The translations under genes were made by a program, and so were the position numbers. A stretch of 64,000 bases of DNA from an uncultured delta proteobacterium (GTDB lineage: Bacteria > Desulfobacterota > Desulfobaccia > Desulfobaccales > 0-14-0-80-60-11). The stretch spans positions 3,393 to 67,392 of the forward strand of contig CAVZAM010000013.1 in the NCBI GenBank assembly GCA_963773285.1, in the 5' to 3' direction. Of the stretch, positions 5,903 through 32,103 are shown one piece after another (the first letter of the stretch is position 1; every line of letters starts with the position of its first letter). The notes beneath the pieces were generated by a model. The model saw only the letters and a list, made by a program, of their open reading frames with translations. It was not told the DNA's origin and did no database searches.

Positions 5903-7489
5903 TCAGGTCAGCCGGCGCAAGCGCTCCACCGGGTCCACGGCTCCCTTGCGCAGCTCATCGGGAGTGGGCAGGTGTTCGAGACGCATCAGCTCCGCGATGG
6001 CGGTCATTTCCCGATCGAACCCCAGCCCCGCTGCGGCCAGCACCCGGTTATCCCTGACATAGAAGGCCAGAAATTTCCGCTCCTGCAGATCCCCGTCAAA
6101 GATAATCTCGTCCCAACTCGAGGCATAACCCACGTACTGCAGGGTCTGGTCGAATTGCTCGGTCCAGAAGAAGGGGATCCCCCGCCAGGGCTGCGGTTTT
6201 CCAGCCATGTTGTGGGCGGCCAGGCGGCCATGCTGTTCCGCCAGGCGCCAGTGCTCGATTCTGACGGCTTCCCCCGTGCGCCAGTCGGGAAAACGGGCGA
6301 TATCGCCGGCGGCATACAAGTCTTCCCCGGCCCGCAAGTGCTGGTCCACGGTGAGGCTGCCGTCGGCATTGAGGGGCACGCCTTGGAGAAACCCGGTAGC
6401 CGGCCTAACCCCCAGGCCCGCCAGCACCAGGTCGGCGGCCAGCGAGGTGCCGCTGTCCAGGACCACCGACTCGACCCGGCCGTTCCCTGCCAAACGGGCG
6501 ACCCTTTCCCCCATCCGGAAGGCCACCCCCTGCTCCTGGTGGAGGTCGATGAGCATCTTGCCGATCTCCGGCCCCAAAGTGCTGGTGAAGGGGATGGCGC
6601 CCGGCCCCACCACGGTGACCTTGAGCCCGCGCTTGGTCAGGCTGGCTGCGGTTTCCATGCCGATAAAGCTCGCCCCCACCACCACGGCCCGCTGGTCACT
6701 TCCGGCCGCGGCGACAATGGCGTCGGCGTCATCGGCGCTCCTCAAGGTGAAAACATTAGCTAATCCGGCTCCCGGGACCTCAAGAGGGCGAGCCTTGCCG
6801 CCCGGGGCCAAAAGCAGGGTGTGATAGGACAGGGCGTCGCCATCGGCGAAGGTAATGGCCTTGGCAGCCGCGTCCACCTTGGCTACCTGTTTCCCCAGGA
6901 GGACCTCGATGTCGTGGCTGCGGTAGAATTCATCGCTTCTGAGAGGCAGGGAGTCGGGCCCCGCGGCGCCGGCCAGGTAACCTTTGCTGAGGTTGGGCCG
7001 GTCGTAGGGCAGGCGCTTCTCCTGGGTGATCATGAGGAGGCGGCCCTCATAGCCGTCCTCTCTTAAGGTCTGGGCCGCCATATTCCCCGCCGCACCCGCT
7101 CCCACAATGACCAAGGTACGCCCGTCCGCCTCGCGGTTGCACCGGCACATGGGCGGCGGCTGGGAAGCTGCGCCGGTTTCGGGGATGCCCACGATAATAT
7201 CATCGCCCTCCACCCGCACCTTGAACACCGGGAGGGCGTCGAGGGCCGGCGGCTCTAAAATCGCCCCGGTGGTGACGTTGAAGTTGGCCTGGTGCCAGGG
7301 GCAGACTACCCGCTCGCCCTTCAGGGAGCCCTCCGCCAGCGGCCCGCCATAATGGGTGCACTCACCCGCAGTGGCATAAAAAACCCCGTTTATCCTGGCC
7401 AGCAGGACCTTGGTCTCGCCAACCACCACCTCTTTCATGCCCCCGTCTTGTAGATCACTCACCTTGGCGACAATAGCCTCGTTATTCAT
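5903..7489 (-). CDS. Rieske [2Fe-2S] domain fused to an FAD/NAD(P)-dependent pyridine nucleotide-disulfide oxidoreductase (ferredoxin-reductase-like)
   Basis: Rieske motifs CTHYGGPL and CPWHQANF at the N-terminus. Then GAGAAG and VVVGASFIGMETA Rossmann motifs and AAGDIA, typical of ferredoxin/rubredoxin reductase-type flavoproteins. Confidence 0.8.
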   Translation of the reverse strand: MNNEAIVAKVSDLQDGGMKEVVVGETKVLLARINGVFYATAGECTHYGGPLAEGSLKGERVVCPWHQANFNVTTGAILEPPALDALPVFKVRVEGDDIIVGIPETGAASQPPPMCRCNREADGRTLVIVGAGAAGNMAAQTLREDGYEGRLLMITQEKRLPYDRPNLSKGYLAGAAGPDSLPLRSDEFYRSHDIEVLLGKQVAKVDAAAKAITFADGDALSYHTLLLAPGGKARPLEVPGAGLANVFTLRSADDADAIVAAAGSDQRAVVVGASFIGMETAASLTKRGLKVTVVGPGAIPFTSTLGPEIGKMLIDLHQEQGVAFRMGERVARLAGNGRVESVVLDSGTSLAADLVLAGLGVRPATGFLQGVPLNADGSLTVDQHLRAGEDLYAAGDIARFPDWRTGEAVRIEHWRLAEQHGRLAAHNMAGKPQPWRGIPFFWTEQFDQTLQYVGYASSWDEIIFDGDLQERKFLAFYVRDNRVLAAAGLGFDREMTAIAELMRLEHLPTPDELRKGAVDPVERLRRLT

Positions 7490-10914: not shown

Positions 10915-11405
10915 TCAGCCCAGTGTCATGTAGCGCATGTGTGATTTCTTTTTTAGATCATGTGATGCATTTTGGAGCAGATTTACTACCAAGTAATTAA
11001 AATAGTTAAAACCTTCTTGAGTAAAATGGCCATGATTTAAGTATCTCTTGAACAGATTCTTTTCTCGATAGCATTCATGGAAATACAATCGGTTAAACTA
11101 TATTCCTTATCAGGGCGATTTTCGTATAATTCTGAATCCCTCACAAACTGAATCCCTGGATTGAGGGACCACTTTAACATTCGGGTTATTGACGAATAGC
11201 TCTTACCATCTTGGCAGCTTGTCGCCTTATATTGGCTCCACCAGCTCTAAGAGTCTATTAAGAATTCTGTTAGTATTTCGTCAGTTGTAATTAGCCTTAC
11301 ATTACCTAATTTTGCTTTTGCCCTCTGAGATGGCTCTTTCCAATGATCATGAGGAAGTGTAATTGCAATCCAATAAAGTGTGACAACAAATACTGCTCTC
11401 ATCAT
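10915..11405 (-). pseudogene. Decayed PIN-domain (VapC-like) toxin gene
   Basis: PIN signature pieces are scattered over three frames: MMRAVFVVTLYWIAITLPHDHW...GNVRLITTDEILTEFL, AAKMVRAIRQ, NPNVKVVPQSRDS, ELYENRPDKEYSLTDCISMNAIEKR, HGHFTQEGFNYF. The expected first acidic residue reads V (FVVT). Confidence 0.5.
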
Positions 11406-11660
11406 TTTGGAATTCCATACATGATAGTGGCCTATATTAGTTGTAAGGTCAGATCGGTAATCTAGTCCGAATCTGTCCCCAGGGACTTCAGAAGCTAATT
11501 CTTCAATTATTTCTTCGATCGGGCGTGCAGATTGAACAAATTTAATATCTCGCCTAATTCTTGAATATCCCATTCAATAATTTCAGTTACTCGTTGTAAC
11601 TTACCTTGTGAAGTGAACTCTCCCTTACCTGTGATGTGTAATTTGCACTTTTCGTGCTCT

Positions 11661-12245
11661 TTAAGTGGCATGTTGCAACTTCATTTGTCTAATGATTGTG
11701 AAAAAAGTTACTATTATGCATGTCTTTTCATCGGTCCAAAGTTGAAATCGTTTCAAACGTATGTCGGCCTCCAATACTTCTCCTATTATGTCCACATAAT
11801 CTTCATATTTTAAATCGGCAAAATTTTCTAAGCGCAATCGGGAAGTTGTGGTCAATCGTGTTGGTTCTTTACCTGGCCTGCTAACTTCTATCTCTTCACT
11901 TTCACCTAATTGTTGGCCCCATTTGGCATATTCATAAGAAGTGATTTCGGAAAATTTTCCGGAAGATGGTTCGTTTGCCTCCAATGCTCTAATTGTCTTA
12001 TAGGCTATCTCAACTGCCTCTTCTATTTCAGTTGATAGTTCTAAAAGTGGCTGTTGCTGAATATAAACTTCCAATGGAGCAACGGCACTACCTTCTTCAA
12101 TCCTCCTTAAACATAAGCGTGTGCGGTCTTCAAAATTTTTTGGAAGTCGTTCACGCTGAAGGTTACCTGCAAGCCATAATTCCTTTGCAGTGTCAGCAAT
12201 CACCTTTTGAAAATGGCTAAGCTCGGAAAGTGCTGTAAGGTCCAA
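11661..12245 (-). CDS. Hypothetical protein in the low-GC islet
   Basis: 194-aa ORF (TTG start) at about 35-40 % GC in a >60 % GC background. No family recognised. An overlapping ATG (11671) opens a further 54-codon frame, so it may continue by frameshift. Confidence 0.4.
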   Translation of the reverse strand: MDLTALSELSHFQKVIADTAKELWLAGNLQRERLPKNFEDRTRLCLRRIEEGSAVAPLEVYIQQQPLLELSTEIEEAVEIAYKTIRALEANEPSSGKFSEITSYEYAKWGQQLGESEEIEVSRPGKEPTRLTTTSRLRLENFADLKYEDYVDIIGEVLEADIRLKRFQLWTDEKTCIIVTFFTIIRQMKLQHAT

Positions 12246-12400
12246 GGCATGATCTTGAAATCTATCGCCTTTAAAGGCAATACGGATTACCTCTTTCCAT
12301 TAGCCCTTCATGATCTAACCTCCTCTCCCGATCTAAGACCCTTTGAAGATTTTCTTGCACGAGTTTAAGAAAAATTAATCAATTTGTTTAGGTATTATCC

Positions 12401-13880
<1,480 letters not shown>

Positions 13881-14061
13881 AGAGGCTACTTTCTGATCAT
13901 ATGAGGTTGTCGAGGCCGGGGGCAAAAGGCCGCAAGCCCCGGGGGAGTTGCGCTCCCAGGCCCTCTCCGCAAGAATCTAAACAGGGTTGACAAAATCTCC
14001 CGGATAGGCGAAGTCTTTTCCAGGCCGGCATGGCAACGCCGGCTGCCAAGGGGGAGCCAGT

Positions 14062-14322
14062 ATGTCCGAAATCATCAGCAAGTTATCCAAAAATTCCCGG
14101 GAGACCATTTTTCTGTCGCTCTCGGAATTCAAAGGCCGCCGCCTGGTGGACATCCGGGTGCACGTCCCGGGGGACCAGGAAGATGAGTGGGTGCCCACCC
14201 GCAAGGGGGTATCCCTGGCGGTGTCTCTCTATCCCGCCTTCAAACAGGCCCTGGCCGAACTCGAGGAGGCCCTGGTGGCCCAGAAGCTTCTTGACCCGGA
14301 AGACCTGGAGATTGCTGATTGA
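14062..14322 (+). CDS. PC4/p15-like single-stranded-DNA-binding transcriptional coactivator family protein, copy 1
   Basis: 86 aa. SRETIFLSLSEFKGRRLVDIRVHV...WVPTRKGVSL matches the bacterial PC4 (PF02229-type) pattern. Confidence 0.65.
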   Translation: MSEIISKLSKNSRETIFLSLSEFKGRRLVDIRVHVPGDQEDEWVPTRKGVSLAVSLYPAFKQALAELEEALVAQKLLDPEDLEIAD

Positions 14323-14520
14323 ACTCCGGTCAAAGTTTATTGTACCCAAAGAGCCGCAAGGGGGCAACGACGTCCTGCGGGGCTAAAAAACTTGTTTTTG
14401 CGAATATTTTCGTCTACCCTGCGTCCCATCCGCAGAAAAAGTTCGGCCTGCCTTGATAATTCATTAACAAGGACTATCTTTAAGGGTAAATCCCGGGTCT
14501 AAGACCAGAGAGGAGCAAGA

Positions 14521-15105
14521 ATGAAGGCTTATCAAATCCTCGATTTTTCGCACCTTTTGGGCATGGAAGGATTCAGCGATACCCTTCTTAAAAATCACTT
14601 TACCCTTTACCAGGGGTACGTCAACAACACCAACAAGATTATGGAAACCCTGGAGAATATGGCCAAGGCAGGCAAAATGGGAGACCCTGAGTATGCCGAA
14701 CTCAAAAGGCGCTTTGGGTGGGAATGGAACGGCATGCGCCTCCACGAGCTTTACTTTCAGAACCTGGGCGGCAACGGCGACCCCGGCAAGGCCCCGACCC
14801 TGATGAAGGCCATGGAGCAGGCGAAAGGCTCCTTCGAAGTGTGCGCTAAGGAGTTCAAGGCCACCGCAAGCATGCGGGGCATCGGCTGGGTGGTGGGCTA
14901 CCAGGACATCGCCCACGGCATCGTTTTCCATCAGTGGATCAACGAGCATGACGTGGGGCACCCGGCGGGGTTGAACCCCATCCTGGTCCTGGACGTCTTC
15001 GAGCACGCCTTCATGATCGACTACGGCCTCAAGAGAGCCGACTATATCGAGGCCTTCTTCAAGAACGTCAAGTGGGAAGAAGTGGAAAAGCGTTTTGTCA
15101 AATAG
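14521..15105 (+). CDS. Fe/Mn superoxide dismutase family protein, copy 1
   Basis: HFTLYQGYVNNTN, WEWNGMRLHELYF and GWVV...LVLDVFEHAFMIDY (D-x-x-E-H-A metal-ligand motif), with a C-terminal ...FFKNVKWEEVEKRF. Confidence 0.8.
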   Translation: MKAYQILDFSHLLGMEGFSDTLLKNHFTLYQGYVNNTNKIMETLENMAKAGKMGDPEYAELKRRFGWEWNGMRLHELYFQNLGGNGDPGKAPTLMKAMEQAKGSFEVCAKEFKATASMRGIGWVVGYQDIAHGIVFHQWINEHDVGHPAGLNPILVLDVFEHAFMIDYGLKRADYIEAFFKNVKWEEVEKRFVK

Positions 15106-15211
15106 TAATTTTTAAGTACGACAGGACCACACAAGCAATGCCAGGGGAGGGGCCAACAAGCCCTCCCCTTCATGTTTCTTTGACTGCCGGAACGGCTCGA
15201 GGAGGAGCATC

Positions 15212-16168
15212 ATGCGGCGCATTACCGGTCTGGTCTACGACGACCAATACCTGCGGCATGTCCCCGGGGAATGGCACCCGGAGCGCCCGGCCCGCCTGGA
15301 GGCCATCATGCAGCGCCTCCAGGACACCGGTCTCCTGGAGGAAGTGTTCCTCATCCGCCCCTATTCGGCCCCTCTCCCCTGGATCGAACGCCTCCACGAC
15401 CCGGGCTACATCAAGCGCTTCGAGGAGACCTGCCAGAAAGGCGCCAGCATTTTCGGAGTCCCGGACTGCGGCATCTCCCCGGAATCCTATGAGATCGCGC
15501 TGCTGGCGGTGGGGGGGGTATTTGCCGCCATCGAGAACGTCATGAACGGCACGGTGCAGAACGCCTTCTGTGCGGTGCGCCCCCCGGGCCACCACGCCGA
15601 ACACAGCCGGGCCCTGGGCTTTTGTTTCTTCAACAATATCGCCCTGGGGGCCATCTACCTCCTGGAGAATTTCCACCTGGAACGGGTGGCCATCATCGAC
15701 TGGGACGTGCACCACGGCAACGGCACTCAGCACCTCTTTGAATCAGACCCCCGGGTGTTCTATCTGTCCCTCCATGAAGACCCTTCCAGCTGCTACCCCG
15801 GCACCGGCAGCAGTTCGGAGCGAGGCACGGGCCTTGGCGAGGGCTTCACCCTGAACCTGCCCATGCCCGCCGGCAGCGGCGACGCCGCCTATCTCGAGGC
15901 CTTTCGGGATCAAGGTCTGCCCCGGCTCAAGGAGTTTGCCCCCCAGTTTGTCCTGATTTCGGCGGGCTTCGACGCCCACCAGGATGACCCCCTGGCCAAC
16001 CTGAACCTGACACGGGATGCCTATAAAGAGATGGGGGCAATGCTCCTGCAGCTGGCCGAGGACAGCGCCGCCGGCCGCCTCATCAGCGTCCTCGAGGGGG
16101 GCTACAACCTCACCGTCCTGGCCGACTGCGTGGAGGACCACCTGCGCCTGCTGTTAGGTGAAGGTTAG
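15212..16168 (+). CDS. Histone deacetylase-family (AcuC/HDAC class II-like) amidohydrolase, copy 1
   Basis: RPPGHHAE, IIDWDVHHGNGTQ, SAGFDAH and EGGYN motifs. Confidence 0.9.
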   Translation: MRRITGLVYDDQYLRHVPGEWHPERPARLEAIMQRLQDTGLLEEVFLIRPYSAPLPWIERLHDPGYIKRFEETCQKGASIFGVPDCGISPESYEIALLAVGGVFAAIENVMNGTVQNAFCAVRPPGHHAEHSRALGFCFFNNIALGAIYLLENFHLERVAIIDWDVHHGNGTQHLFESDPRVFYLSLHEDPSSCYPGTGSSSERGTGLGEGFTLNLPMPAGSGDAAYLEAFRDQGLPRLKEFAPQFVLISAGFDAHQDDPLANLNLTRDAYKEMGAMLLQLAEDSAAGRLISVLEGGYNLTVLADCVEDHLRLLLGEG

Positions 16169-16398
16169 GCCAAGTTCCCGAAAAAGATTACCTTTCTGGC
16201 TTTTTGAGGCGCGGAATTCCTTGACGCCGGAAAATCTCCGTGCTAAGGATGGCTATCCTTTCATCAGGCGTACCAGCAGTGGTTGAGGCACCAGCGACAA
16301 CAGGAGGGCAAAGGGGAGGGCCGTGAGGCCGCCCTTTTTTTGTGCCTGCAGCCGGCGGCAACCGCCCCGGAAGGAATATTTTCGCAGCAGGAGGACTT

Positions 16399-16722
16399 AT
16401 GGGCTTCATGGGCAAGGTCAAGTGGTTCAACGAATCCAAGGGCTACGGGTTCATCGAGCGGGAGGACGGCGCCGACGTTTTCGTGCACTACACCAACATC
16501 GTCGGCCAGGGCTTCCGCACCCTCAAGGAAAACGACGAAGTGGAGTTCGAAGTCAACGAGGGCCCCAAGGGTCTCCAGGCGGTGAACGTGGAAAAGGTAC
16601 CCGCCACACCGTCCCGCCGGGCTTGTCCTCCAGCAAAATCCCCATGGCCAGCAGCTCATCCCGGATCTTGTCGGCGCCGGCCCAGTCCTTGTTTTTCCTG
16701 GCCTCGGTGCGCCGGGCGATGA
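16399..16722 (+). CDS. cspA: Cold-shock protein, copy 1; stop codon lost at the duplication junction, giving a chimeric 3' extension
   Basis: AGGAGG SD, then [24 protein letters not shown]...VNVEKV. The frame then continues for about 40 codons antisense to cysS copy 2 ([11 protein letters not shown]...) because the junction at 16598/16599 removes the TGA seen in copy 2. Confidence 0.8.
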
Positions 16723-18070
16723 GGGCCTCGATCTCCTCGGGGCCGATGGCCAGGTCCGCGGGCTTCTGGCGCAGGGTGGCCACGGTCTCGGACGGGTCGG
16801 CCTGGAGGAGATTGAGGACCTGCCCCAGGGAGATTAACTCTTGTTGTATATGGGCCAGCAGGGCAAGATAGGCCGGGTCGTCAGTGGGGTTTTCCAGCAG
16901 GCGGTTGGTGAGGCGCACCGCGTCGAACATGTACCCCAGGGCCTGGGCGGTGTTGACGTCGTCGTCCAGGGCCTCGTCGAAGCGCTGGGAGAGGGTAAAG
17001 AGGCGCTCCAGTTCCTCCGGCGCCAGGCCGGCGGCGCTAAAATCCCGGGGCGGCGGATTCCCCGGGGCCGGGTGCGCCCGCAGGATGTCCTGGATGGCGG
17101 CCAGGGGGGCGTAAAGGCGCAGGAGCGCGGTCTCGGCTTCGGCCAGGGCTGCATCCGAAAAGTCCAGCGGGCTCCGGTAGTGGCTGCTGATCAAAAAGAA
17201 GCGCACCACCTCGGCCGGGAATTTTGCCAGGACTTCCTTGACGGTGAAAAAGTTCTTGAGGGACTTGCTCATCTTCTCATGGTTGATGGTGAGGAGCCCA
17301 TGGTGCACCCAAAAGCGGGCGAAAGGCGCATCGTTGGCCGCCTCGGATTGGGCCAGCTCGTTTTCGTGGTGGGGGAAGACCAGATCCCGGCCGCCGCCGT
17401 GGATGTCCAGGGTCTCGCCCAGGTATTTCATGCTCATGGCGGAGCACTCGATGTGCCAGCCCGGGCGCCCCGGTCCCCAGGGGCTGGGCCAGGCGGGCTC
17501 CCCGGGCTTGCTGGCCTTCCACAGGACAAAATCCAGGGGGTCTTCCTTCACCGCGTCCACCTCGATCCGGGCGCCGGACTCCAAATCCTCCAGGCTCTGG
17601 CCCGAGAGCTTGCCGTAGCCCGGGAAACGCCGCACCCGGTAGTAGACGTCGCCGTTGGCCGCGCCCTGGTAGGCAAAGCCCTGGTCCACCAGGCGCCCGA
17701 TGATGGTGAGCATCTCGGGGACGTGGTCCGTGGCCTTGGGCTCGATCTTAGCCGGGGGAATCCCGAGCGCCGCCATGTCTTCCTGAAAAGAGGCGATGTA
17801 GCGGGCCGCGATCTCGTCCCAGGCCACCCCCTCCTCCTTGGCGCGCTTCAAGATCTTGTCGTCGATGTCGGTGTAGTTCCTGACCCAGGTGACCTCGTAG
17901 CCCCGGCGCCGGAGATACCGCACCAGCACCTCGAAGAACACGCTGGAGCGGGCGTGCCCCAGGTGACAGTCATCGTACACCGTGACCCCGCAGGCATATA
18001 AGCCCACCTTGCCGGGGTGCAGCGCCGCAAATTTTTCCTTGCGCCGGCCTAACGTGTTGTATAGCTGCAT
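16553..18070 (-). CDS. cysS: Cysteine--tRNA ligase, copy 2 (last Lys and stop replaced by a 15-aa junction-derived tail)
   Basis: Same motifs as copy 1, uninterrupted. Ends ...GGTVWRV then [14 protein letters not shown], read antisense through the csp copy 1 3' end. Confidence 0.92.
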
Positions 18071-18251
18071 AGAGGCTACTTTCTGATCATATGAGGTTGT
18101 CGAGGCCGGGGGCAAAAGGCCGCAAGCCCCGGGGGAGTTGCGCTCCCAGGCCCTCTCCGCAAGAATCTAAACAGGGTTGACAAAATCTCCCGGATAGGCG
18201 AAGTCTTTTCCAGGCCGGCATGGCAACGCCGGCTGCCAAGGGGGAGCCAGT

Positions 18252-18512
18252 ATGTCCGAAATCATCAGCAAGTTATCCAAAAATTCCCGGGAGACCATTT
18301 TTCTGTCGCTCTCGGAATTCAAAGGCCGCCGCCTGGTGGACATCCGGGTGCACGTCCCGGGGGACCAGGAAGATGAGTGGGTGCCCACCCGCAAGGGGGT
18401 ATCCCTGGCGGTGTCTCTCTATCCCGCCTTCAAACAGGCCCTGGCCGAACTCGAGGAGGCCCTGGTGGCCCAGAAGCTTCTTGACCCGGAAGACCTGGAG
18501 ATTGCTGATTGA
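18252..18512 (+). CDS. PC4/p15-like family protein, copy 2
   Basis: Protein identical to 14062-14322, offset exactly 4190 nt. Confidence 0.65.
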   Translation: MSEIISKLSKNSRETIFLSLSEFKGRRLVDIRVHVPGDQEDEWVPTRKGVSLAVSLYPAFKQALAELEEALVAQKLLDPEDLEIAD

Positions 18513-18710
18513 ACTCCGGTCAAAGTTTATTGTACCCAAAGAGCCGCAAGGGGGCAACGACGTCCTGCGGGGCTAAAAAACTTGTTTTTGCGAATATTTT
18601 CGTCTACCCCGCGTCCCATCCGCAGAAAAAGTTCGGCCTGCCTTGATAATTCATTAACAAGGACTATCTTTAAGGGTAAATCCCGGGTCTAAGACCAGAG
18701 AGGAGCAAGA

Positions 18711-19295
18711 ATGAAGGCTTATCAAATCCTCGATTTTTCGCACCTTTTGGGCATGGAAGGATTCAGCGATACCCTTCTTAAAAATCACTTTACCCTTTAC
18801 CAGGGGTACGTCAACAACACCAACAAGATTATGGAAACCCTGGAGAACATGGCCAAGGCAGGCAAAATGGGAGACCCTGAGTATGCCGAGCTCAAAAGGC
18901 GCTTTGGGTGGGAATGGAACGGCATGCGCCTCCACGAGCTTTACTTTCAGAATCTCGGCGGCAACGGCGACCCCGGCAAGGCCCCGACCCTGATGAAGGC
19001 CATGGAGCAGGCGAAAGGCTCCTTCGAAGTGTGCGCTAAGGAGTTCAAGGCCACCGCAAGCATGCGGGGCATCGGCTGGGTGGTGGGCTACCAGGACATC
19101 GCCCACGGCATCGTTTTCCATCAGTGGATCAACGAGCATGACGTGGGGCACCCGGCGGGGTTGAACCCCATCCTGGTCCTGGACGTCTTCGAGCACGCCT
19201 TCATGATCGACTACGGCCTCAAGAGAGCCGACTATATCGAGGCCTTCTTCAAGAACGTCAAGTGGGAAGAAGTGGAAAAGCGTTTTGTCAAATAG
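18711..19295 (+). CDS. Fe/Mn superoxide dismutase family protein, copy 2
   Basis: Protein identical to copy 1, with a few synonymous differences. Confidence 0.8.
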   Translation: MKAYQILDFSHLLGMEGFSDTLLKNHFTLYQGYVNNTNKIMETLENMAKAGKMGDPEYAELKRRFGWEWNGMRLHELYFQNLGGNGDPGKAPTLMKAMEQAKGSFEVCAKEFKATASMRGIGWVVGYQDIAHGIVFHQWINEHDVGHPAGLNPILVLDVFEHAFMIDYGLKRADYIEAFFKNVKWEEVEKRFVK

Positions 19296-19401
19296 TAATT
19301 TTTAAGTACGACAGGACCACACAAGCAATGCCAGGGGAGGGGCCAACAAGCCCTCCCCTTCATGTTTCTTTGACTGCCGGAACGGCTCGAGGAGGAGCAT
19401 C

Positions 19402-20358
19402 ATGCGGCGCATTACCGGTCTGGTCTACGACGACCAATACCTGCGGCATGTCCCCGGGGAATGGCACCCGGAGCGCCCGGCCCGCCTGGAGGCCATCATG
19501 CAGCGCCTCCAGGACACCGGTCTCCTGGAGGAAGTGTTCCTCATCCGCCCCTATTCGGCCCCTCTCCCCTGGATCGAACGCCTCCACGACCCGGGCTACA
19601 TCAAGCGCTTCGAGGAGACCTGCCAGAAAGGCGCCAGCATTTTCGGAGTCCCGGACTGCGGCATCTCCCCGGAATCCTATGAGATCGCGCTGCTGGCGGT
19701 GGGCGGGGTATTTGCCGCCATCGAGAACGTCATGAACGGCACGGTGCAGAACGCCTTCTGTGCGGTGCGCCCCCCGGGCCACCACGCCGAACACAGCCGG
19801 GCCCTGGGCTTTTGTTTCTTCAACAATATCGCCCTGGGGGCCATCTACCTCCTGGAGAATTTCCACCTGGAACGGGTGGCCATCATCGACTGGGACGTGC
19901 ACCACGGCAACGGCACCCAGCACCTCTTTGAATCAGACCCCCGGGTGTTCTATCTGTCCCTCCATGAAGACCCTTCCAGCTGCTACCCCGGCACCGGCAG
20001 CAGTTCGGAGCGAGGCACGGGCCTTGGCGAGGGCTTCACCCTGAACCTGCCCATGCCCGCCGGCAGCGGCGACGCCGCCTATCTCGAGGCCTTTCGGGAT
20101 CACGGCCTGCCCCGGCTCAAGGAGTTTGCCCCCCAGTTTGTCCTGATTTCGGCGGGCTTCGACGCCCACCAGGATGACCCCCTGGCCCACCTGAACCTGA
20201 CCCGGGACGCCTATAAAGCAATGGGCGCAATGCTCCTGCAGCTGGCCGAGGACAGCGCCGCCGGCCGCCTCATCAGCGTCCTCGAGGGGGGCTACAACCT
20301 CACCGTCCTGGCCGACTGCGTGGAGGACCACCTGCGCCTGCTGTTAGGTGAAGGTTAG
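19402..20358 (+). CDS. Histone deacetylase-family amidohydrolase, copy 2
   Basis: Three amino-acid differences from copy 1 (Q/H, N/H, E/A). Confidence 0.9.
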   Translation: MRRITGLVYDDQYLRHVPGEWHPERPARLEAIMQRLQDTGLLEEVFLIRPYSAPLPWIERLHDPGYIKRFEETCQKGASIFGVPDCGISPESYEIALLAVGGVFAAIENVMNGTVQNAFCAVRPPGHHAEHSRALGFCFFNNIALGAIYLLENFHLERVAIIDWDVHHGNGTQHLFESDPRVFYLSLHEDPSSCYPGTGSSSERGTGLGEGFTLNLPMPAGSGDAAYLEAFRDHGLPRLKEFAPQFVLISAGFDAHQDDPLAHLNLTRDAYKAMGAMLLQLAEDSAAGRLISVLEGGYNLTVLADCVEDHLRLLLGEG

Positions 20359-20588
20359 GCCAAGTTCCCAAAAAAGATTACCTTTCTGGCTTTTTGAGGC
20401 GCGGAATTCCTTGACGCCGGAAAATCTCCGTGCTAAGGATGGCTATCCTTTCATCAGGCGTACCAGCAGTGGTTGAGGCACCAGCGACAACAGGAGGGCA
20501 AAGGGGAGGGCCGTGAGGCCGCCCTTTTTTTGTGCCTGCAGCCGGCGGCAACCGCCCCGGAAGGAATATTTTCGCAGCAGGAGGAGTT

Positions 20589-20792
20589 ATGGGCTTCATG
20601 GGCAAGGTCAAGTGGTTCAACGAATCCAAGGGCTACGGGTTCATCGAGCGGGAGGACGGCGCCGACGTTTTCGTGCACTACACCAACATCGTCGGCCAGG
20701 GCTTCCGCACCCTCAAGGAAAACGACGAAGTGGAGTTCGAAGTCAACGAGGGCCCCAAGGGTCTCCAGGCGGTGAACGTGGAAAAGGTCTGA
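20589..20792 (+). CDS. cspA: Cold-shock protein, copy 2 (intact)
   Basis: 67 aa, [19 protein letters not shown]...[10 protein letters not shown], with RNP1-type KGYGFI and RNP2-type VFVHY motifs. Confidence 0.93.
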
Positions 20793-29667: not shown

Positions 29668-30375
29668 TTATGGCTCGAATTTCCAGAAGGGCCGCGTTTT
29701 GGCCAGTTCGGCTATTTCTGCTAGAAATTCCCCGAGATACTCCTTGCTGCGGGAAACATAATCCGGGTCCAGGCGCTTCCTGAAAAAATTCCCGGAGAAT
29801 ACCTTCGCCAGGTTTGCCAGGGGCAGGATGCCCTCCCCGGTGGCGGGATCAAAGCGAGCCCAGTTCCGGATGTGCTCTTCCGACCGGAAGAGATTCATGG
29901 TGCTTCAGGCCTGTGGCAGCCGTTCCAGCCATCGGGAAAACGGGGTGGCCACATAGGCGGTGACGCTGTCCGGAGTGGTCGTGGTGATCCTCCCATCCTG
30001 CATCTCCACCTTAAGCGGGGTGCCACAATCGAGACAAGGAGCAGTGATCTGCACCGGTTTACCGGGAAAAAGCCAGCAAACTGCCAGCGCCTCGAAGCCG
30101 CATTGGGCGAACCATTTCTGTTCACCCGCCACCGTGATGCGGTACTGGGTGGGGAGGTTGCTGAAGGGCGCAAAGCTGCTGATATAGTCCGTATCCGGAA
30201 ACAGCCAGGTCCCTATCACCCCGGCGGCCATCAGTTCATGCAGAGCGCTGCGGCCCTGTTCCACCGGGACCCCCAAGGCCGAGGCAATCTCGGTGTAGTG
30301 GGGCGCCTGACCGGTTTTCACCAAACTGGTGATGATTATGTGGTAGGTCTTGTCCAGGAGAGTTGGGGAACCCAT
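29668..30375 (-). CDS. MerB (organomercurial lyase)-like protein with an in-frame TGA (candidate selenocysteine) at 29905-29907
   Basis: ORFs 30375..29905 and 29898..29668 share one frame and are separated only by TGA AGC ACC. The joined protein is collinear with MerB (FAQCGFEAL vs AWCALD; APCLDCGTPLKVEM vs SHCAATGAPVSLTV; LPQA-TGA-STMNLFRSEEHIRNW vs QSFCC-HVHFFASVPTAEDW). Confidence 0.55.
29875..29892 (-). promoter_or_regulatory. SECIS-like stem-loop downstream of the in-frame UGA
   Basis: CUCUUCC-GGUC-GGAAGAG is a perfect 7-bp stem with a GU-containing tetraloop. It starts 12 nt after the UGA. AUG/CAU can extend the lower stem across an internal loop. Confidence 0.45.
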
Positions 30376-30436
30376 GATGAAGTCCTCCTCTTGAAGAAGA
30401 TGCGGCCTTTATCGGCTCGGCCGGCATTTCGTGGTA

Positions 30437-31371: not shown

Positions 31372-32103
31372 ATGGCCTTATCCGATCAAAAACTTTTTTC
31401 GTACCCCCTCCTGGTCTCCTTGTTCGTGGCCCTCCTGGCGGCGGCCGCGGCGGTGGCCTCCCCGGCCCAGGCCCAGCCCAAGGCGGAGCTTGCCGAAACC
31501 ACCCACGACTTCGGTCCGGTGCGGGAGGACATGTCGCTTACCCACGCCTTTGCGGTGAAAAACACCGGCAACGCCAACCTGCAGATCATGGACGTGGACC
31601 CCGACTGCGCCTGCACCGTGGCCAACTACGACAAGGTCATCCCCCCCGGCGGCACGGGCAACATCAACCTGGAAATCAAGCCCTTCTCCGTGGTGCATGC
31701 CTTCAAGAAGAAGACCGCGGTCAAGTTCAACGACCCCAATCAGGGCGGGACGACGCTGGTGTTAACCGGCAACGCCTCGAAAAGCATCGAGATCGAGCCC
31801 AGCCACATCGTCCGTTTCCGGGGGAGCCCCAGTGACACGCTCACGGCCCAGGTGCGGTTGGTTTCCAACCTGACCTTCCCTCTGGAGATCACCCGGATGG
31901 AGAATTCCCTGCCGGATAAAGTCGAGGCGACCCTGAAAACCGAAAGGCCGGGCAAGGTCTATGTGGTGGAAGTGAAAAACAAGAGCCGGGATGCGGAACA
32001 CTACGTGGATACGATCGAGCTGTTCACCAATGTCGTGCACAAACCCAAGATCGTTATGCGGGTCATTGCCGATCTTGATTCGGGCCCGCCGGTAAGGCCG
32101 TAA
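31372..32103 (+). CDS. DUF1573 domain-containing secreted protein
   Basis: Signal peptide (LLVSLFVALLAAAAAVASPAQA), then HDFGPVREDMSLTHAFAVKNTGNANLQI, typical of DUF1573. Confidence 0.7.
   Translation: MALSDQKLFSYPLLVSLFVALLAAAAAVASPAQAQPKAELAETTHDFGPVREDMSLTHAFAVKNTGNANLQIMDVDPDCACTVANYDKVIPPGGTGNINLEIKPFSVVHAFKKKTAVKFNDPNQGGTTLVLTGNASKSIEIEPSHIVRFRGSPSDTLTAQVRLVSNLTFPLEITRMENSLPDKVEATLKTERPGKVYVVEVKNKSRDAEHYVDTIELFTNVVHKPKIVMRVIADLDSGPPVRP

What the first reader, a model, noticed from the sequence alone, without database searches (positions are those of the whole stretch)
29668..30375. Candidate selenocysteine-containing MerB-like (organomercurial lyase family) protein: in-frame TGA at the catalytic Cys position plus a SECIS-like hairpin
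**Seen in the sequence.**
- The 156-aa ORF (30375..29905) and the 76-aa ORF (29898..29668) are in the same frame. They are separated only by TGA-AGC-ACC (…RLPQA * ST MNLFRS…).
- Elsewhere in this window split genes change frame. This is the only clean in-frame stop I found.
- 12 nt after the TGA lies a perfect hairpin, CUCUUCC-GGUC-GGAAGAG (29892..29875), whose loop contains GU. A possible AUG/CAU lower stem extends it.

**From memory of MerB (R831b).**
- The joined ~235-aa protein is collinear with MerB. FAQCGFEAL aligns with AWCALD (Cys96/Asp99).
- APCLDCGTPLKVEM aligns with SHCAATGAPVSLTV.
- LPQA-[TGA]-STMNLFRSEEHIRNW aligns with QSFCC-HVHFFASVPTAEDW. The TGA therefore falls on the Cys159/Cys160 catalytic position.

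**Inference.** UGA is read as Sec, giving a Sec-for-Cys variant of a C-Hg (or other C-metal/metalloid) lyase-like enzyme. I cannot tell from here whether this family is already listed among bacterial selenoproteins.
Basis: partly seen in the sequence, partly recalled or inferred. Interest (0 to 1): 0.85.

Follow-up and report, generated by a model that had tools for sequence, protein, structure and literature searches.

The report
Overlooked selenocysteine MerB-like lyase gene
The two small reading frames are one gene for a MerB-like (carbon-mercury lyase fold) enzyme whose internal TGA almost certainly encodes selenocysteine at a catalytic position. It belongs to a large, stand-alone family that gene callers routinely cut into fragments and that is distinct from the one MerB-like selenoprotein already described (SaoL).

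Summary
Confirmed. On the minus strand, 30375..29668 is one 235-codon frame broken only by TGA at 29907..29905. A perfect 7-bp/4-nt-loop hairpin (29892..29875) lies 12 nt downstream.

- **One gene:** Pfam MerB spans the TGA (76 bits joined, 50 for the N-half alone).
- **Active site:** alignment to solved MerB puts Cys92, Glu95 and the TGA on MerB Cys96, Asp99 and Cys159.
- **Relatives:** of 163 related loci fetched, 160 carry TGA at this codon. Rare homologues carry Cys there.
- **Second TGA:** 78 of the 80 nearest genome loci also have TGA at codon 92, so most close relatives encode two Sec. The window has TGC there.
- **Hairpins:** synonymous codon variation is near maximal along the gene but collapses at the hairpin after each TGA. 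The first hairpin is absent in the 80-locus clade that has Cys92. One compensatory stem change exists.
- **Independent copies:** three other assemblies (about 97% identical DNA) show the same TGA.
- **Fold:** a Cys/Cys homologue models confidently and matches only MerB structures.
- **Not SaoL, not canonical MerB:** NCBIfam scores are far below cut-offs, there is no CU motif, and there is no SAO or mer neighbourhood.

Not shown: Sec machinery (none in the window), selenium incorporation, substrate. Verdict: a real selenoprotein gene and a new variant of a known kind.

The parts
29668..30375 (-). Complete selenoprotein gene: 235 codons including one in-frame TGA, plus the TAA stop at 29670..29668.
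   Evidence: Single frame. Pfam MerB PF03243 covers aa 71-190 across the TGA at 76.4 bits, against 49.8 for the N-half alone. Full-length collinear homologues exist.
30384..30389 (-). Shine-Dalgarno AGGAGG, 8 nt before the ATG at 30375.
   Evidence: Read from the sequence. There is no comparable site before the internal ATG at 29898, where the upstream sequence is ...CAGGCCTGAAGCACC.
30211..30375 (-). N-terminal helical (winged-helix-like) domain, about aa 1-55.
   Evidence: Three helices in the model of homologue P0037. Weak HTH-type Pfam hits (DUF4423, FaeA). Foldseek partial hits to LexA/MntR-type HTH domains, not significant.
29806..30165 (-). MerB (alkylmercury lyase) domain, aa 71-190.
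   Evidence: Pfam PF03243 E=2.5e-21. PDB phmmer hit to MerB2 5c17, E=2e-8. For the homologue model, all 11 Foldseek hits with E<=0.001 are MerB or MerB2.
30100..30102 (-). Codon 92, TGC (Cys), equivalent to MerB Cys96. It is TGA (Sec) in most close relatives.
   Evidence: Alignment to MerB. Codon census: 78 of 83 loci in the genome set have TGA here; the window, L001, L027 and L043 have TGC.
30091..30093 (-). Codon 95, GAG (Glu), at the position of MerB Asp99, the proton donor.
   Evidence: Alignment. Glu in 82 of 83 loci.
30072..30088 (-). Relic of the first SECIS-like hairpin: GCTGGCA-GTT-TGCTGGC, 11 nt after codon 92.
   Evidence: In 79 loci with TGA92, six of the seven stem pairs are kept in at least 97.5% of loci (the seventh in 82%) and the loop is GUY. 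Synonymous variation collapses at codons 96-97. In the Cys92 clade the same positions mostly do not pair (six of seven pairs 1-54%) and vary normally. The consensus scan flagged this site as terminator-like.
30025..30036 (-). Invariant C114-L-D-C117 pair. C114 aligns with MerB Cys117; role unknown.
   Evidence: Cys in 83 of 83 loci at both codons. Invariant in alignments A1-A3.
29905..29907 (-). In-frame TGA, codon 157: proposed selenocysteine, equivalent to MerB Cys159.
   Evidence: TGA in 82 of 83 loci in the genome set and 80 of 80 loci from the metagenome scan. Cys in rare homologues. Same TGA in three independent assemblies.
29875..29892 (-). SECIS-like hairpin CUCUUCC-GGUC-GGAAGAG, 12 nt after the UGA. 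The loop GU lies at nt 24-25 counted from the U of UGA.
   Evidence: Mini-hairpin energy is -9.6 to -9.8 kcal/mol. At least 6 inner pairs are intact in 158 of 161 loci; loop GGUC in 153 of 161. Synonymous variation is nil or nearly nil at codons 162-167 in two clades. Compensatory C-G to G-C change in L086 and L087.
29671..29904 (-). Codons 158-235, translated only if UGA157 is decoded: the end of the MerB domain plus a helical C-terminal extension.
   Evidence: Amino acids are conserved while synonymous variation is near maximal at codons 168-235, which indicates protein-level selection in this frame. Confidently modelled helices in the homologue.

Best explanation
30375..29668 (minus strand) is one gene for a 235-residue MerB-fold selenoprotein.

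**How the UGA is read.** When the ribosome reaches UGA157, a SelB/Sec-tRNA(Sec) complex bound to the mRNA hairpin 12 nt downstream inserts selenocysteine instead of terminating.

**What the protein does.**
- Sec157 occupies the position of MerB Cys159, Cys92 that of Cys96, and Glu95 that of Asp99.
- The most likely chemistry is MerB-type protonolysis of a carbon-metal(loid) bond. The thiolate and selenolate bind the metal of an organometal such as methylmercury. The carboxylate then protonates the leaving carbon. The metal ion stays chelated until it is passed on.

**Family context.** In most close relatives both nucleophiles are Sec, each with its own hairpin. The window's lineage has recently changed the first one to Cys.

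**Shown:** gene continuity, Sec/Cys column, two TGA-linked constrained hairpins, MerB fold, distinctness from SaoL and canonical MerB.

**Inferred:** actual Sec insertion, lyase activity, substrate. Confidence in the selenoprotein reading is about 0.9. Confidence in organometal lyase chemistry is about 0.5. Confidence in mercury as the substrate is lower.
For: **One gene, MerB-like**
- The MerB domain spans the TGA.
- Active-site columns align with solved MerB and MerB2.
- The AF2 model of the natural Cys/Cys homologue P0037 (55% identical) has pLDDT 93.3 and pTM 0.88. Its only significant PDB matches are MerB/MerB2, at E down to 2e-10 and TM 0.59-0.68.

**Sec/Cys pairing**
- P0037, P0046, P0049 and P0078 have Cys at the TGA column.
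- 160 of 163 fetched related loci have TGA there.
- JGI proteins with W at both catalytic columns are TGA in the DNA.

**RNA element**
- In 81 loci, synonymous entropy is about 0.75-1.0 of its maximum at conserved residues. It is at most 0.1 at codons 96, 162-166 and about 0.2-0.4 at codons 97 and 167.
- In 80 loci of a Cys92/TGA157 clade, codons 162-166 show zero synonymous variation while codons 96-102 sit at the baseline. The disfavoured GAA is used 80 of 80 times where it pairs with UUC.
- Stem pair statistics and one compensatory double change support the hairpin.

**Not an error:** three other assemblies, 96-98% identical in DNA, have the same TGC92, TGA157 and hairpin.

**Translation signals:** a strong SD precedes the first ATG and none precedes the internal ATG.

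**Literature**
- Sec replaces the Cys159-equivalent in the MerB relative SaoL (bioRxiv 10.1101/2022.07.06.499078).
- Selones cleave Hg-C bonds faster than their sulfur analogues (PMC11639659).
- Complete Sec machinery was found in all the selC*-carrying genomes examined, which include Syntrophobacterales and Desulfobacterales (PMC5389517).
Against: - No tRNA-Sec, selA, selB or selD in the 64-kb window or in 50 related loci. Sec capacity of this genome rests on taxonomy alone.
- Rfam has no matching family.
- The hairpin is almost invariant, so classical covariation is limited to 2 loci.
- The conserved peptide LFRSEE partly dictates the hairpin sequence, and one Cys157 homologue (L085) still has a perfect hairpin.
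- No mer operon, SAO locus or any conserved neighbour supports a substrate.
- The triad is Cys/Glu/Sec, not Cys/Asp/Cys.
- A Hg(II) product bound to selenolate would be very hard to release, and no MerA partner is nearby.
Confidence: 0.85

Rival explanations
1. The protein is a selenoprotein on a MerB scaffold but not a carbon-metal lyase. It could be a selenol/thiol redox enzyme, a metal(loid) or selenium binding and hand-off protein, or a metal-sensing regulator. The Cys92/Sec157 pair (Sec/Sec in relatives) would cycle as a selenenylsulfide or diselenide, or act as a tight chelator. The invariant C114xxC117 would be a relay pair and the N-terminal helical domain an interaction or DNA-binding module.
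For: - Invariant extra CxxC.
- Glu instead of Asp at the proton-donor position.
- No mer or SAO context and no conserved neighbours.
- N-terminal HTH-like domain.
- Most known prokaryotic selenoproteins are redox proteins (PMC9312934, PMC13188914).
- Haft and Gwadz already doubt that mercury is the substrate of the Sec-containing relative SaoL.
Against: - The whole MerB fold is kept, and all three catalytic columns hold chemically equivalent residues.
- MerB itself has the same N-terminal region.
- No redox-partner genes are linked.
Confidence: 0.3
2. UGA157 is decoded, but at least partly as cysteine rather than selenocysteine. The route would be the SelC*-tRNA(Cys)UCA / SelB* system described in Syntrophobacterales and Desulfobacterales, using the same hairpin.
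For: - That system is reported for exactly these orders and was shown to read a Sec-UGA as Cys in a reporter (PMC5389517).
- The nearest relatives of the window's gene are Syntrophobacterales MAGs.
Against: - No selC*, selB* or cysS* in the window. The window's cysS is a normal full-length gene with its anticodon-binding domain.
- TGA is kept in 160 of 163 loci although TGC is one mutation away, which argues that Sec itself is selected.
Confidence: 0.08
3. The TGA is a real stop. The locus would be two genes (156 aa and 76 aa), or a truncated MerB-like protein followed by a spurious ORF, or a pseudogene or assembly error in an indel-prone long-read assembly.
For: - Gene callers annotate it that way everywhere, as 91-, 156- and 73/76-aa products.
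- Neighbouring genes in sister assemblies are fragmented by indels.
- No Sec machinery was seen in the window.
Against: - The MerB domain and the homologues run straight through the stop.
- The downstream frame is under protein-level selection.
- There is no SD before the second ATG.
- The TGA and the hairpin are conserved in 160 loci from many orders.
- A 156-residue product would lack the Cys159-equivalent nucleophile.
- Three independent assemblies agree.
Confidence: 0.03
4. The gene is simply a member of the published MerB-like selenoprotein family SaoL.
For: Same superfamily (PF03243), and Sec sits at the Cys159-equivalent column in both.
Against: - NF040728 scores 43.1 bits against a cut-off of 140, covering only aa 59-139. 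All 40 family members tested score about as low, with a best E-value of 2e-12.
- The motif is A-U-S, not C-U.
- There is Glu in place of Asp.
- Most relatives have a second Sec at codon 92.
- There is no nine-gene SAO neighbourhood.
Confidence: 0.03

Closest known systems
SaoL (NCBIfam NF040728), the MerB-like organometallic lyase selenoprotein of the SAO system (Haft and Gwadz 2022/2023)
   Same: - PF03243 superfamily.
- Found in anaerobes.
- Truncated in databases at a UGA.
- Sec at the column of MerB Cys159.
- Substrate unknown.
   Different: - Far below the SaoL HMM cut-off (43 against 140 bits).
- A-U-S rather than a C-U dipeptide.
- Glu95 instead of Asp.
- Invariant extra CxxC.
- Most members have a second Sec at the Cys96 column, with its own hairpin.
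- About 235 aa with a C-terminal helical extension.
- Stand-alone gene, not part of the nine-gene SAO locus.
- Found in several hundred species-level genomes and in many soil metagenomes, against about 50 species for SaoL.
MerB organomercurial lyase (EC 4.99.1.2; R831b MerB, PDB 3F0O/3F0P; B. megaterium MerB2, PDB 5C17)
   Same: - Fold: Foldseek E=2e-10, TM about 0.65.
- Domain order.
- Positions of the two metal-binding nucleophiles and of the acidic proton donor.
- Cys117 equivalent present.
   Different: - Only about 20% identity; NCBIfam MerB models score 28-37 bits against cut-offs of 193-200.
- Cys159 is replaced by Sec (and Cys96 by Sec in most relatives), and Asp99 by Glu.
- No merA, merR, merT or merP nearby.
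- Chromosomal in strict anaerobes and soil bacteria rather than on mer transposons or plasmids.
Bacterial SECIS elements (E. coli fdhF type; the bSECISearch consensus, recalled from my own knowledge)
   Same: A short stem-loop starts 11-12 nt after the UGA. The apical loop begins with G and contains GU about 22-25 nt from the UGA. Hairpin energy is about -10 kcal/mol.
   Different: - Very small (7 bp, with a 3-4-nt loop) and no bulged U.
- Almost invariant in sequence across orders and phyla.
- Two different hairpins serve two UGAs in one 235-codon gene.

Membership tests
Bacterial selenoprotein gene (Sec-UGA plus SECIS) | In-frame UGA with conserved coding sequence on both sides | tested here: met
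   Codons 168-235 keep their amino acids while synonymous variation is near maximal.
Bacterial selenoprotein gene (Sec-UGA plus SECIS) | Homologues with Cys aligned to the UGA | tested here: met
   P0037, P0046, P0049 and P0078. TGC/TGT verified in the DNA of L083-L085.
Bacterial selenoprotein gene (Sec-UGA plus SECIS) | Stem-loop shortly downstream of the UGA, with G/GU in the apical loop, conserved beyond what the coding sequence requires | tested here: met
   Hairpin at 29892..29875. 158 of 161 loci keep at least 6 pairs. Synonymous variation collapses there, with a Cys92-clade control for hairpin 1. One compensatory change. No Rfam model exists to score it.
Bacterial selenoprotein gene (Sec-UGA plus SECIS) | selA, selB, selC (tRNA-Sec) and selD in the same genome | not testable with these tools
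   No tRNA at all in the window, and no sel genes among the window genes annotated. The rest of the genome could not be fetched. Taxon-level support only (PMC5389517, PMC13326102).
Bacterial selenoprotein gene (Sec-UGA plus SECIS) | Selenium physically present in the protein | not testable with these tools
   Needs 75Se labelling or mass spectrometry.
MerB / alkylmercury lyase (PF03243, EC 4.99.1.2) | Pfam PF03243 above the gathering threshold | tested here: met
   76.4 bits against a cut-off of 27, aa 71-190.
MerB / alkylmercury lyase (PF03243, EC 4.99.1.2) | MerB three-dimensional fold | tested here: met
pLDDT 93.3. All 11 PDB hits with E<=0.001 are MerB or MerB2.
MerB / alkylmercury lyase (PF03243, EC 4.99.1.2) | Strictly conserved Cys96 / Asp99 / Cys159 | tested here: not met
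   The columns hold Cys92 / Glu95 / Sec157, and Sec/Glu/Sec in most relatives. These are chemically analogous but not the canonical triad. Surveys that require the triad (PMC8261052) would exclude it.
MerB / alkylmercury lyase (PF03243, EC 4.99.1.2) | NCBIfam MerB equivalog models above cut-off | tested here: not met
   NF009710: 37 bits against 193. NF033555: 28.2 bits against 200. The same holds for family members.
MerB / alkylmercury lyase (PF03243, EC 4.99.1.2) | mer operon context (merA, merR, merT, merP) | tested here: not met
   The neighbours are hisB, DUF1573, an FBP aldolase/phosphatase, a K+ channel, hflX and others. No neighbour family is shared by more than 9 of about 80 loci.
MerB / alkylmercury lyase (PF03243, EC 4.99.1.2) | Organomercurial lyase activity | not testable with these tools
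   Needs an enzyme assay.
SaoL (NF040728) | HMM score of at least 140 bits | tested here: not met
   43.1 bits. Among 40 family members the best E-value is 2e-12.
SaoL (NF040728) | CU dipeptide at the active site | tested here: not met
   The sequence is ...LPQA-U-STM.... The residue before U is Ala, Val or Leu in relatives.
SaoL (NF040728) | Embedded in the nine-gene SAO neighbourhood | tested here: not met
   No ABC transporter, efflux pump or thioredoxin-like Sao genes within 10 kb either side, and no conserved neighbourhood. The neighbours were not scanned against the Sao HMMs.

The most novel reading that the evidence does not exclude
This is a widespread, systematically mis-annotated family of stand-alone MerB-fold enzymes. 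Their active site holds two selenols, or a thiol plus a selenol as in this window. The family could be the missing mer-operon-independent enzyme that cleaves methylmercury, or another organometal(loid) such as organoarsenic or organotin, in anoxic sediments and soils. Censuses of merB miss it because the called ORFs end before Cys96 or Cys159.
Probability: 0.2. Interest if true: 0.85.

Novelty: new variant of a known kind. Interest (0 to 1): 0.62.

Why it matters
- **Annotation.** At least several hundred species-level genomes and hundreds of metagenome contigs carry this gene, called as 91-, 156- or 76-residue fragments or with W in place of U. One rule fixes them all: read TGA at these two columns as Sec.
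- **Selenoprotein biology.** The family adds a second, much larger MerB-derived selenoprotein lineage. Usually both catalytic nucleophiles are Sec, each served by its own mini-SECIS. It also shows natural Sec-to-Cys switches, which are useful for asking what Sec buys the enzyme.
- **Mercury biogeochemistry.** Methylmercury degradation by anaerobes without a mer operon is poorly understood (PMC10114901). Surveys define merB by Cys96/Asp99/Cys159 (PMC8261052), so this family is invisible to them. It gives a concrete, clonable candidate to test.

Tried and rejected
- **Rfam.** A gathering scan of the window gave no hit. There is no usable bacterial SECIS family, so the scan says nothing either way.
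- **tRNA-Sec.** ARAGORN on the window and on 50 related loci found none. This was expected by chance and is uninformative about the genome.
- **Other selenoprotein genes in the window.** The in-frame TGA junctions with high GC3 all look like spurious frames of GC-rich DNA.
- **Neighbourhood clustering for functional hints.** Among 80 genome loci no family is shared by more than 9 loci. Among 80 metagenome loci the apparent clusters were antisense or out-of-frame ORFs, and the true neighbours vary.
- **A large Cys157 control set.** A metagenome scan seeded with Cys forms returned 80 of 80 TGA157 loci. Only three Cys157 loci could be compared, and they differ: the hairpin is destroyed in L083, partly kept in L084 and intact in L085. 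The Cys92 clade served as the clean control for hairpin 1.
- **Literature.**
  - Haft and Tolstoy 2025 (mSystems) and the journal version of Haft and Gwadz 2023 are not held.
  - The BSepDB and AEM-review supplements are not held.
  - The GOS and ISME papers do not mention MerB.
- **Rejected reading: TGA recoded as Trp or Gly genome-wide.** Many long window ORFs end in TGA, and both TGA columns align with Cys, not Trp.
Full report
**1. The observation**

- On the minus strand the frame opens at ATG 30375, which is preceded by AGGAGG 8 nt upstream.
- It runs 156 codons to TGA at 29907..29905 and continues in the same frame (AGC ACC ATG...) for 78 more codons to TAA at 29670..29668.
- Twelve nucleotides after the TGA lies CTCTTCC-GGTC-GGAAGAG (29892..29875).
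- Neither feature is remarkable alone.
  - The window has 13 perfect 7-bp/4-nt-loop hairpins, against about 6 in shuffles.
  - It has 104 in-frame TGA junctions with long open frames on both sides.
- The case therefore rests on homology and comparative data.

**2. One gene, MerB-like**

- The joined protein (U written as C) matches Pfam MerB PF03243 over aa 71-190, across the TGA, at 76.4 bits. The N-terminal ORF alone scores 49.8, and the 76-aa ORF alone matches nothing.
- phmmer against PDB sequences aligns it to B. megaterium MerB2 (5c17, E=2e-8) and to R831b MerB (3f2g). Cys92 falls on Cys96, Glu95 on Asp99 (Ser in MerB2), Cys114 on Cys117, and the TGA column on Cys159.
- The tool would not fold an edited sequence, so I modelled P0037, a natural Cys/Cys homologue that is 55% identical.
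  - The model has pLDDT 93.3 and pTM 0.88.
  - All 11 Foldseek PDB hits with E<=0.001 are MerB or MerB2, at TM 0.59-0.68 normalised to the target.

**3. Relatives: a large family that is almost always TGA here**

- A protein search found three classes.
  - Truncated proteins of about 155 aa that end exactly where our TGA lies.
  - 'Full-length' JGI proteins with W at both the TGA column and the Cys92 column.
  - A few genuine Cys/Cys proteins: P0037, P0046, P0049 and P0078.
- The DNA of one W/W protein shows TGA at both columns, so W is a gene-calling artefact.
  - The best 80 are mainly Thermodesulfobacteriota MAGs (Syntrophobacterales, Syntrophales, Desulfobacterales), with a few Nitrospirota and Acidobacteriota.
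  - The nearest is a Syntrophobacterales MAG at 83% identity.
- Codon census of these 80 plus L001, L002 and the window:

| Codon 92 / codon 157 | Loci |
|---|---|
| TGA / TGA | 78 |
| TGC / TGA (window, L001, L027, L043) | 4 |
| TGA / GTA (L004) | 1 |

- Glu95 is present in 82 of 83, and Cys114 and Cys117 in 83 of 83.
- A metagenome scan seeded with the Cys forms returned 80 loci, mostly soil. All have TGC or TGT at codon 92 and TGA at codon 157.
- Overall, 160 of 163 fetched related loci have TGA at codon 157. True Cys157 forms are rare.
- In the 50%-identity representative library, the hits are mostly fragments of 90-91 aa or about 155 aa that end just before codon 92 or codon 157.
- Cluster members are 91-, 156- and 73/76-aa pieces named 'hypothetical protein' or 'alkylmercury lyase'.

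**4. The RNA elements**

- In 81 loci of the two-TGA clade, synonymous-codon entropy at conserved residues is about 0.75-1.0 of its maximum along the whole gene, with two exceptions.
  - Codons 96-97, right after TGA92: TCG 97%, CTG 93%.
  - Codons 162-167, after TGA157: CTC 96%, TTC 100%, CGG 99%, TCG 100%, GAA 99%, GAG 92%.
- Codons 168-235 keep their amino acids but vary freely at synonymous sites. The downstream frame is therefore translated and under protein-level selection.
- Hairpin 2 (CUCUUCC-GGUC-GGAAGAG) keeps at least 6 inner pairs in 158 of 161 TGA157 loci.
  - The loop is GGUC in 153. Variants GGGG, GGGC, AGGC and AGUC change the encoded Ser but keep a G.
  - L086 and L087 carry GUC...GAC in place of CUC...GAG. 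This is a compensatory C-G to G-C change that also alters two amino acids.
- Hairpin 1 (GCUGGC-R-GUY-U-GCUGGC, with two G.U pairs) has six of its seven stem pairs kept in at least 97.5% of the 79 TGA92 loci.
- The natural control is the soil clade with Cys92.
  - There the codon 96-102 region encodes other residues, six of the seven hairpin-1 positions pair in only 1-54% of loci, and synonymous variation is at baseline (0.37-0.66, against a median of 0.51).
  - Codons 162-166 in the same sequences show zero synonymous variation.
  - Codon 166 is GAA in 80 of 80 loci, although GAG is strongly preferred elsewhere (75 of 80 at Glu95).
- Each hairpin is therefore constrained only where its own TGA exists.
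- Geometry:
  - The spacer is 11-12 nt.
  - The loop GU lies at nt 22-25 from the U of UGA.
  - The mini-hairpin energy is about -9.7 kcal/mol.
  - From my own knowledge, this fits the E. coli fdhF minimal SECIS and the bSECISearch consensus.
- The three Cys157 loci are mixed: the hairpin is destroyed in L083, partly kept in L084 and intact in L085. This fits recent Sec-to-Cys switches, but the sample is too small to weigh.
- The window still carries hairpin 1 (30088..30072) although codon 92 is TGC. Its nearest relatives, L003 (83% identical) and L002 (79%), have TGA there. This points to a recent Sec-to-Cys change at codon 92 in this lineage. The consensus scan flagged the relic hairpin as terminator-like.

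**5. Not an error and not a recoded genome**

- Contigs from three other ENA samples (ERZ25039488...490...502) are 96-98% identical to the window over 12-14 kb. Each has TGC92, TGA157 and the identical hairpin, with 6-11 differences in the 711-nt gene.
- Many long window ORFs end in TGA, so TGA is an ordinary stop in this organism.

**6. What could not be shown**

- The window has no tRNA gene at all and no sel genes.
- The genes annotated are housekeeping or polysaccharide-synthesis genes:
  - dnaJ, uvrB, cysS and a Rieske/FAD reductase;
  - a deacetylase-family gene, radical-SAM and Clp-type ATPase genes;
  - hflX, hisB, DUF1573, an FBP aldolase/phosphatase, a K+ channel, recJ and ssb.
- Sec capacity therefore rests on taxonomy.
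  - Complete Sec machinery was reported in the selC*-carrying genomes examined by Mukai et al., which include Syntrophobacterales and Desulfobacterales (PMC5389517).
  - Desulfobacterota top the selenoprotein counts in BSepDB (PMC13326102).
- The same paper describes a SelC*-tRNA(Cys)UCA / SelB* system in these orders, so partial Cys insertion at UGA157 cannot be excluded.

**7. Function**

- No neighbour is conserved, and there is no mer operon or SAO locus. The function must be read from the fold and the active site.
- That site is a MerB-type pair of soft nucleophiles (S/Se here, Se/Se in most relatives) plus a carboxylate.
- I commit to MerB-like protonolysis of a carbon-metal(loid) bond as the most likely chemistry, at about 0.5.
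  - Selenium analogues of MerB mimics cleave Hg-C bonds faster than sulfur ones (PMC11639659; also noted in PMC10114901).
  - Product release from a selenolate without a MerA partner is a real difficulty.
- The invariant C114xxC117 pair and Glu-for-Asp are unexplained. A redox or metal hand-off role is the main functional rival, at about 0.3.

**8. Comparison with what is known**

- A MerB-like selenoprotein is already published. SaoL (NF040728) has a CU motif, one Sec, sits in the nine-gene SAO locus and occurs in about 50 species (bioRxiv 10.1101/2022.07.06.499078).
- The 2022 and 2026 reviews list only SaoL under PF03243 (PMC9312934, PMC13188914).
- The present gene fails SaoL membership on every test.
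  - It scores 43 bits against a cut-off of 140. All 40 relatives tested are similarly low.
  - The motif is A-U-S.
  - There is no SAO neighbourhood.
- It also fails the NCBIfam MerB equivalogs (28-37 bits against cut-offs of 193-200).
- NCBIfam release 20 has no model that claims it.
- I found no description of a two-Sec MerB-like family in the library. Haft and Tolstoy 2025 and the BSepDB family table were not available, so prior description cannot be fully excluded.

**9. Verdict**

- The principle, Sec replacing a catalytic Cys in a MerB relative, is known. This lineage, its usual two-Sec active site with two mini-SECIS elements, its breadth and its systematic mis-annotation appear to be new.
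- I rate it a new variant of a known kind, with interest 0.62.

Noticed in passing
window 12408-16598 and 16599-20788: Head-to-tail duplicate of 4,191 bp at 98.9% identity (46 mismatches, 1 gap). Each copy carries a full-length cysS and a histone-deacetylase-family gene. It could be a real tandem duplication or a long-read assembly artefact that joined two strain variants.
   Followed up: partly
window 11247-11573 (-) and 11661-12299 (-): Two ORFs with GC3 of 0.26-0.31 in a genome where genes have GC3 of about 0.8. They lie immediately before the duplicated block and look like foreign DNA.
   Followed up: no
window 31372-32103 (+): A DUF1573 (PF07610) protein sits beside hisB. This family has known Sec forms with a UGC motif (PMC13188914, PMC2398784), but here the motif reads C-A-C, the Cys version.
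   Followed up: partly
window 30072-30088 (-): Relic of the first SECIS-like hairpin. It is retained although codon 92 is TGC, and the consensus scan reports it as terminator-like.
   Followed up: yes
L004 around 6469-6471 (codon 157) and codon 95: This Syntrophobacterales MAG has GTA instead of TGA at codon 157 and Gln instead of Glu95, while keeping TGA92 and the hairpin. It is either a decaying copy or an assembly error.
   Followed up: no
L063 + L069 (MFD03726.bin.2.121); L052 + L073 (D0819M20remetaG_Bin_304): Two paralogous copies of the two-Sec gene sit on different contigs of the same MAG.
   Followed up: no
L001 against L166 and L167 (sister assemblies of the window region): Neighbouring genes (hisB, recJ, lactamase_B, the K+ channel) are split into pieces in L001 but intact in L166 and L167. 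Alignments to the window show 40-70 gap openings per 10-14 kb.
   Followed up: partly
JGI proteins P0001-P0036 and others: Public gene calls translate both TGAs as Trp (code-4 style calling on short contigs). This produces 'full-length' proteins with W at the two catalytic columns and would mislead alignments of the family.
   Followed up: yes
window about 42900-63700: A run of sugar-nucleotide epimerase, glycosyltransferase, asparagine-synthase-like amidotransferase and methyltransferase genes. This is an ordinary surface-polysaccharide cluster, unrelated to the finding.
   Followed up: partly
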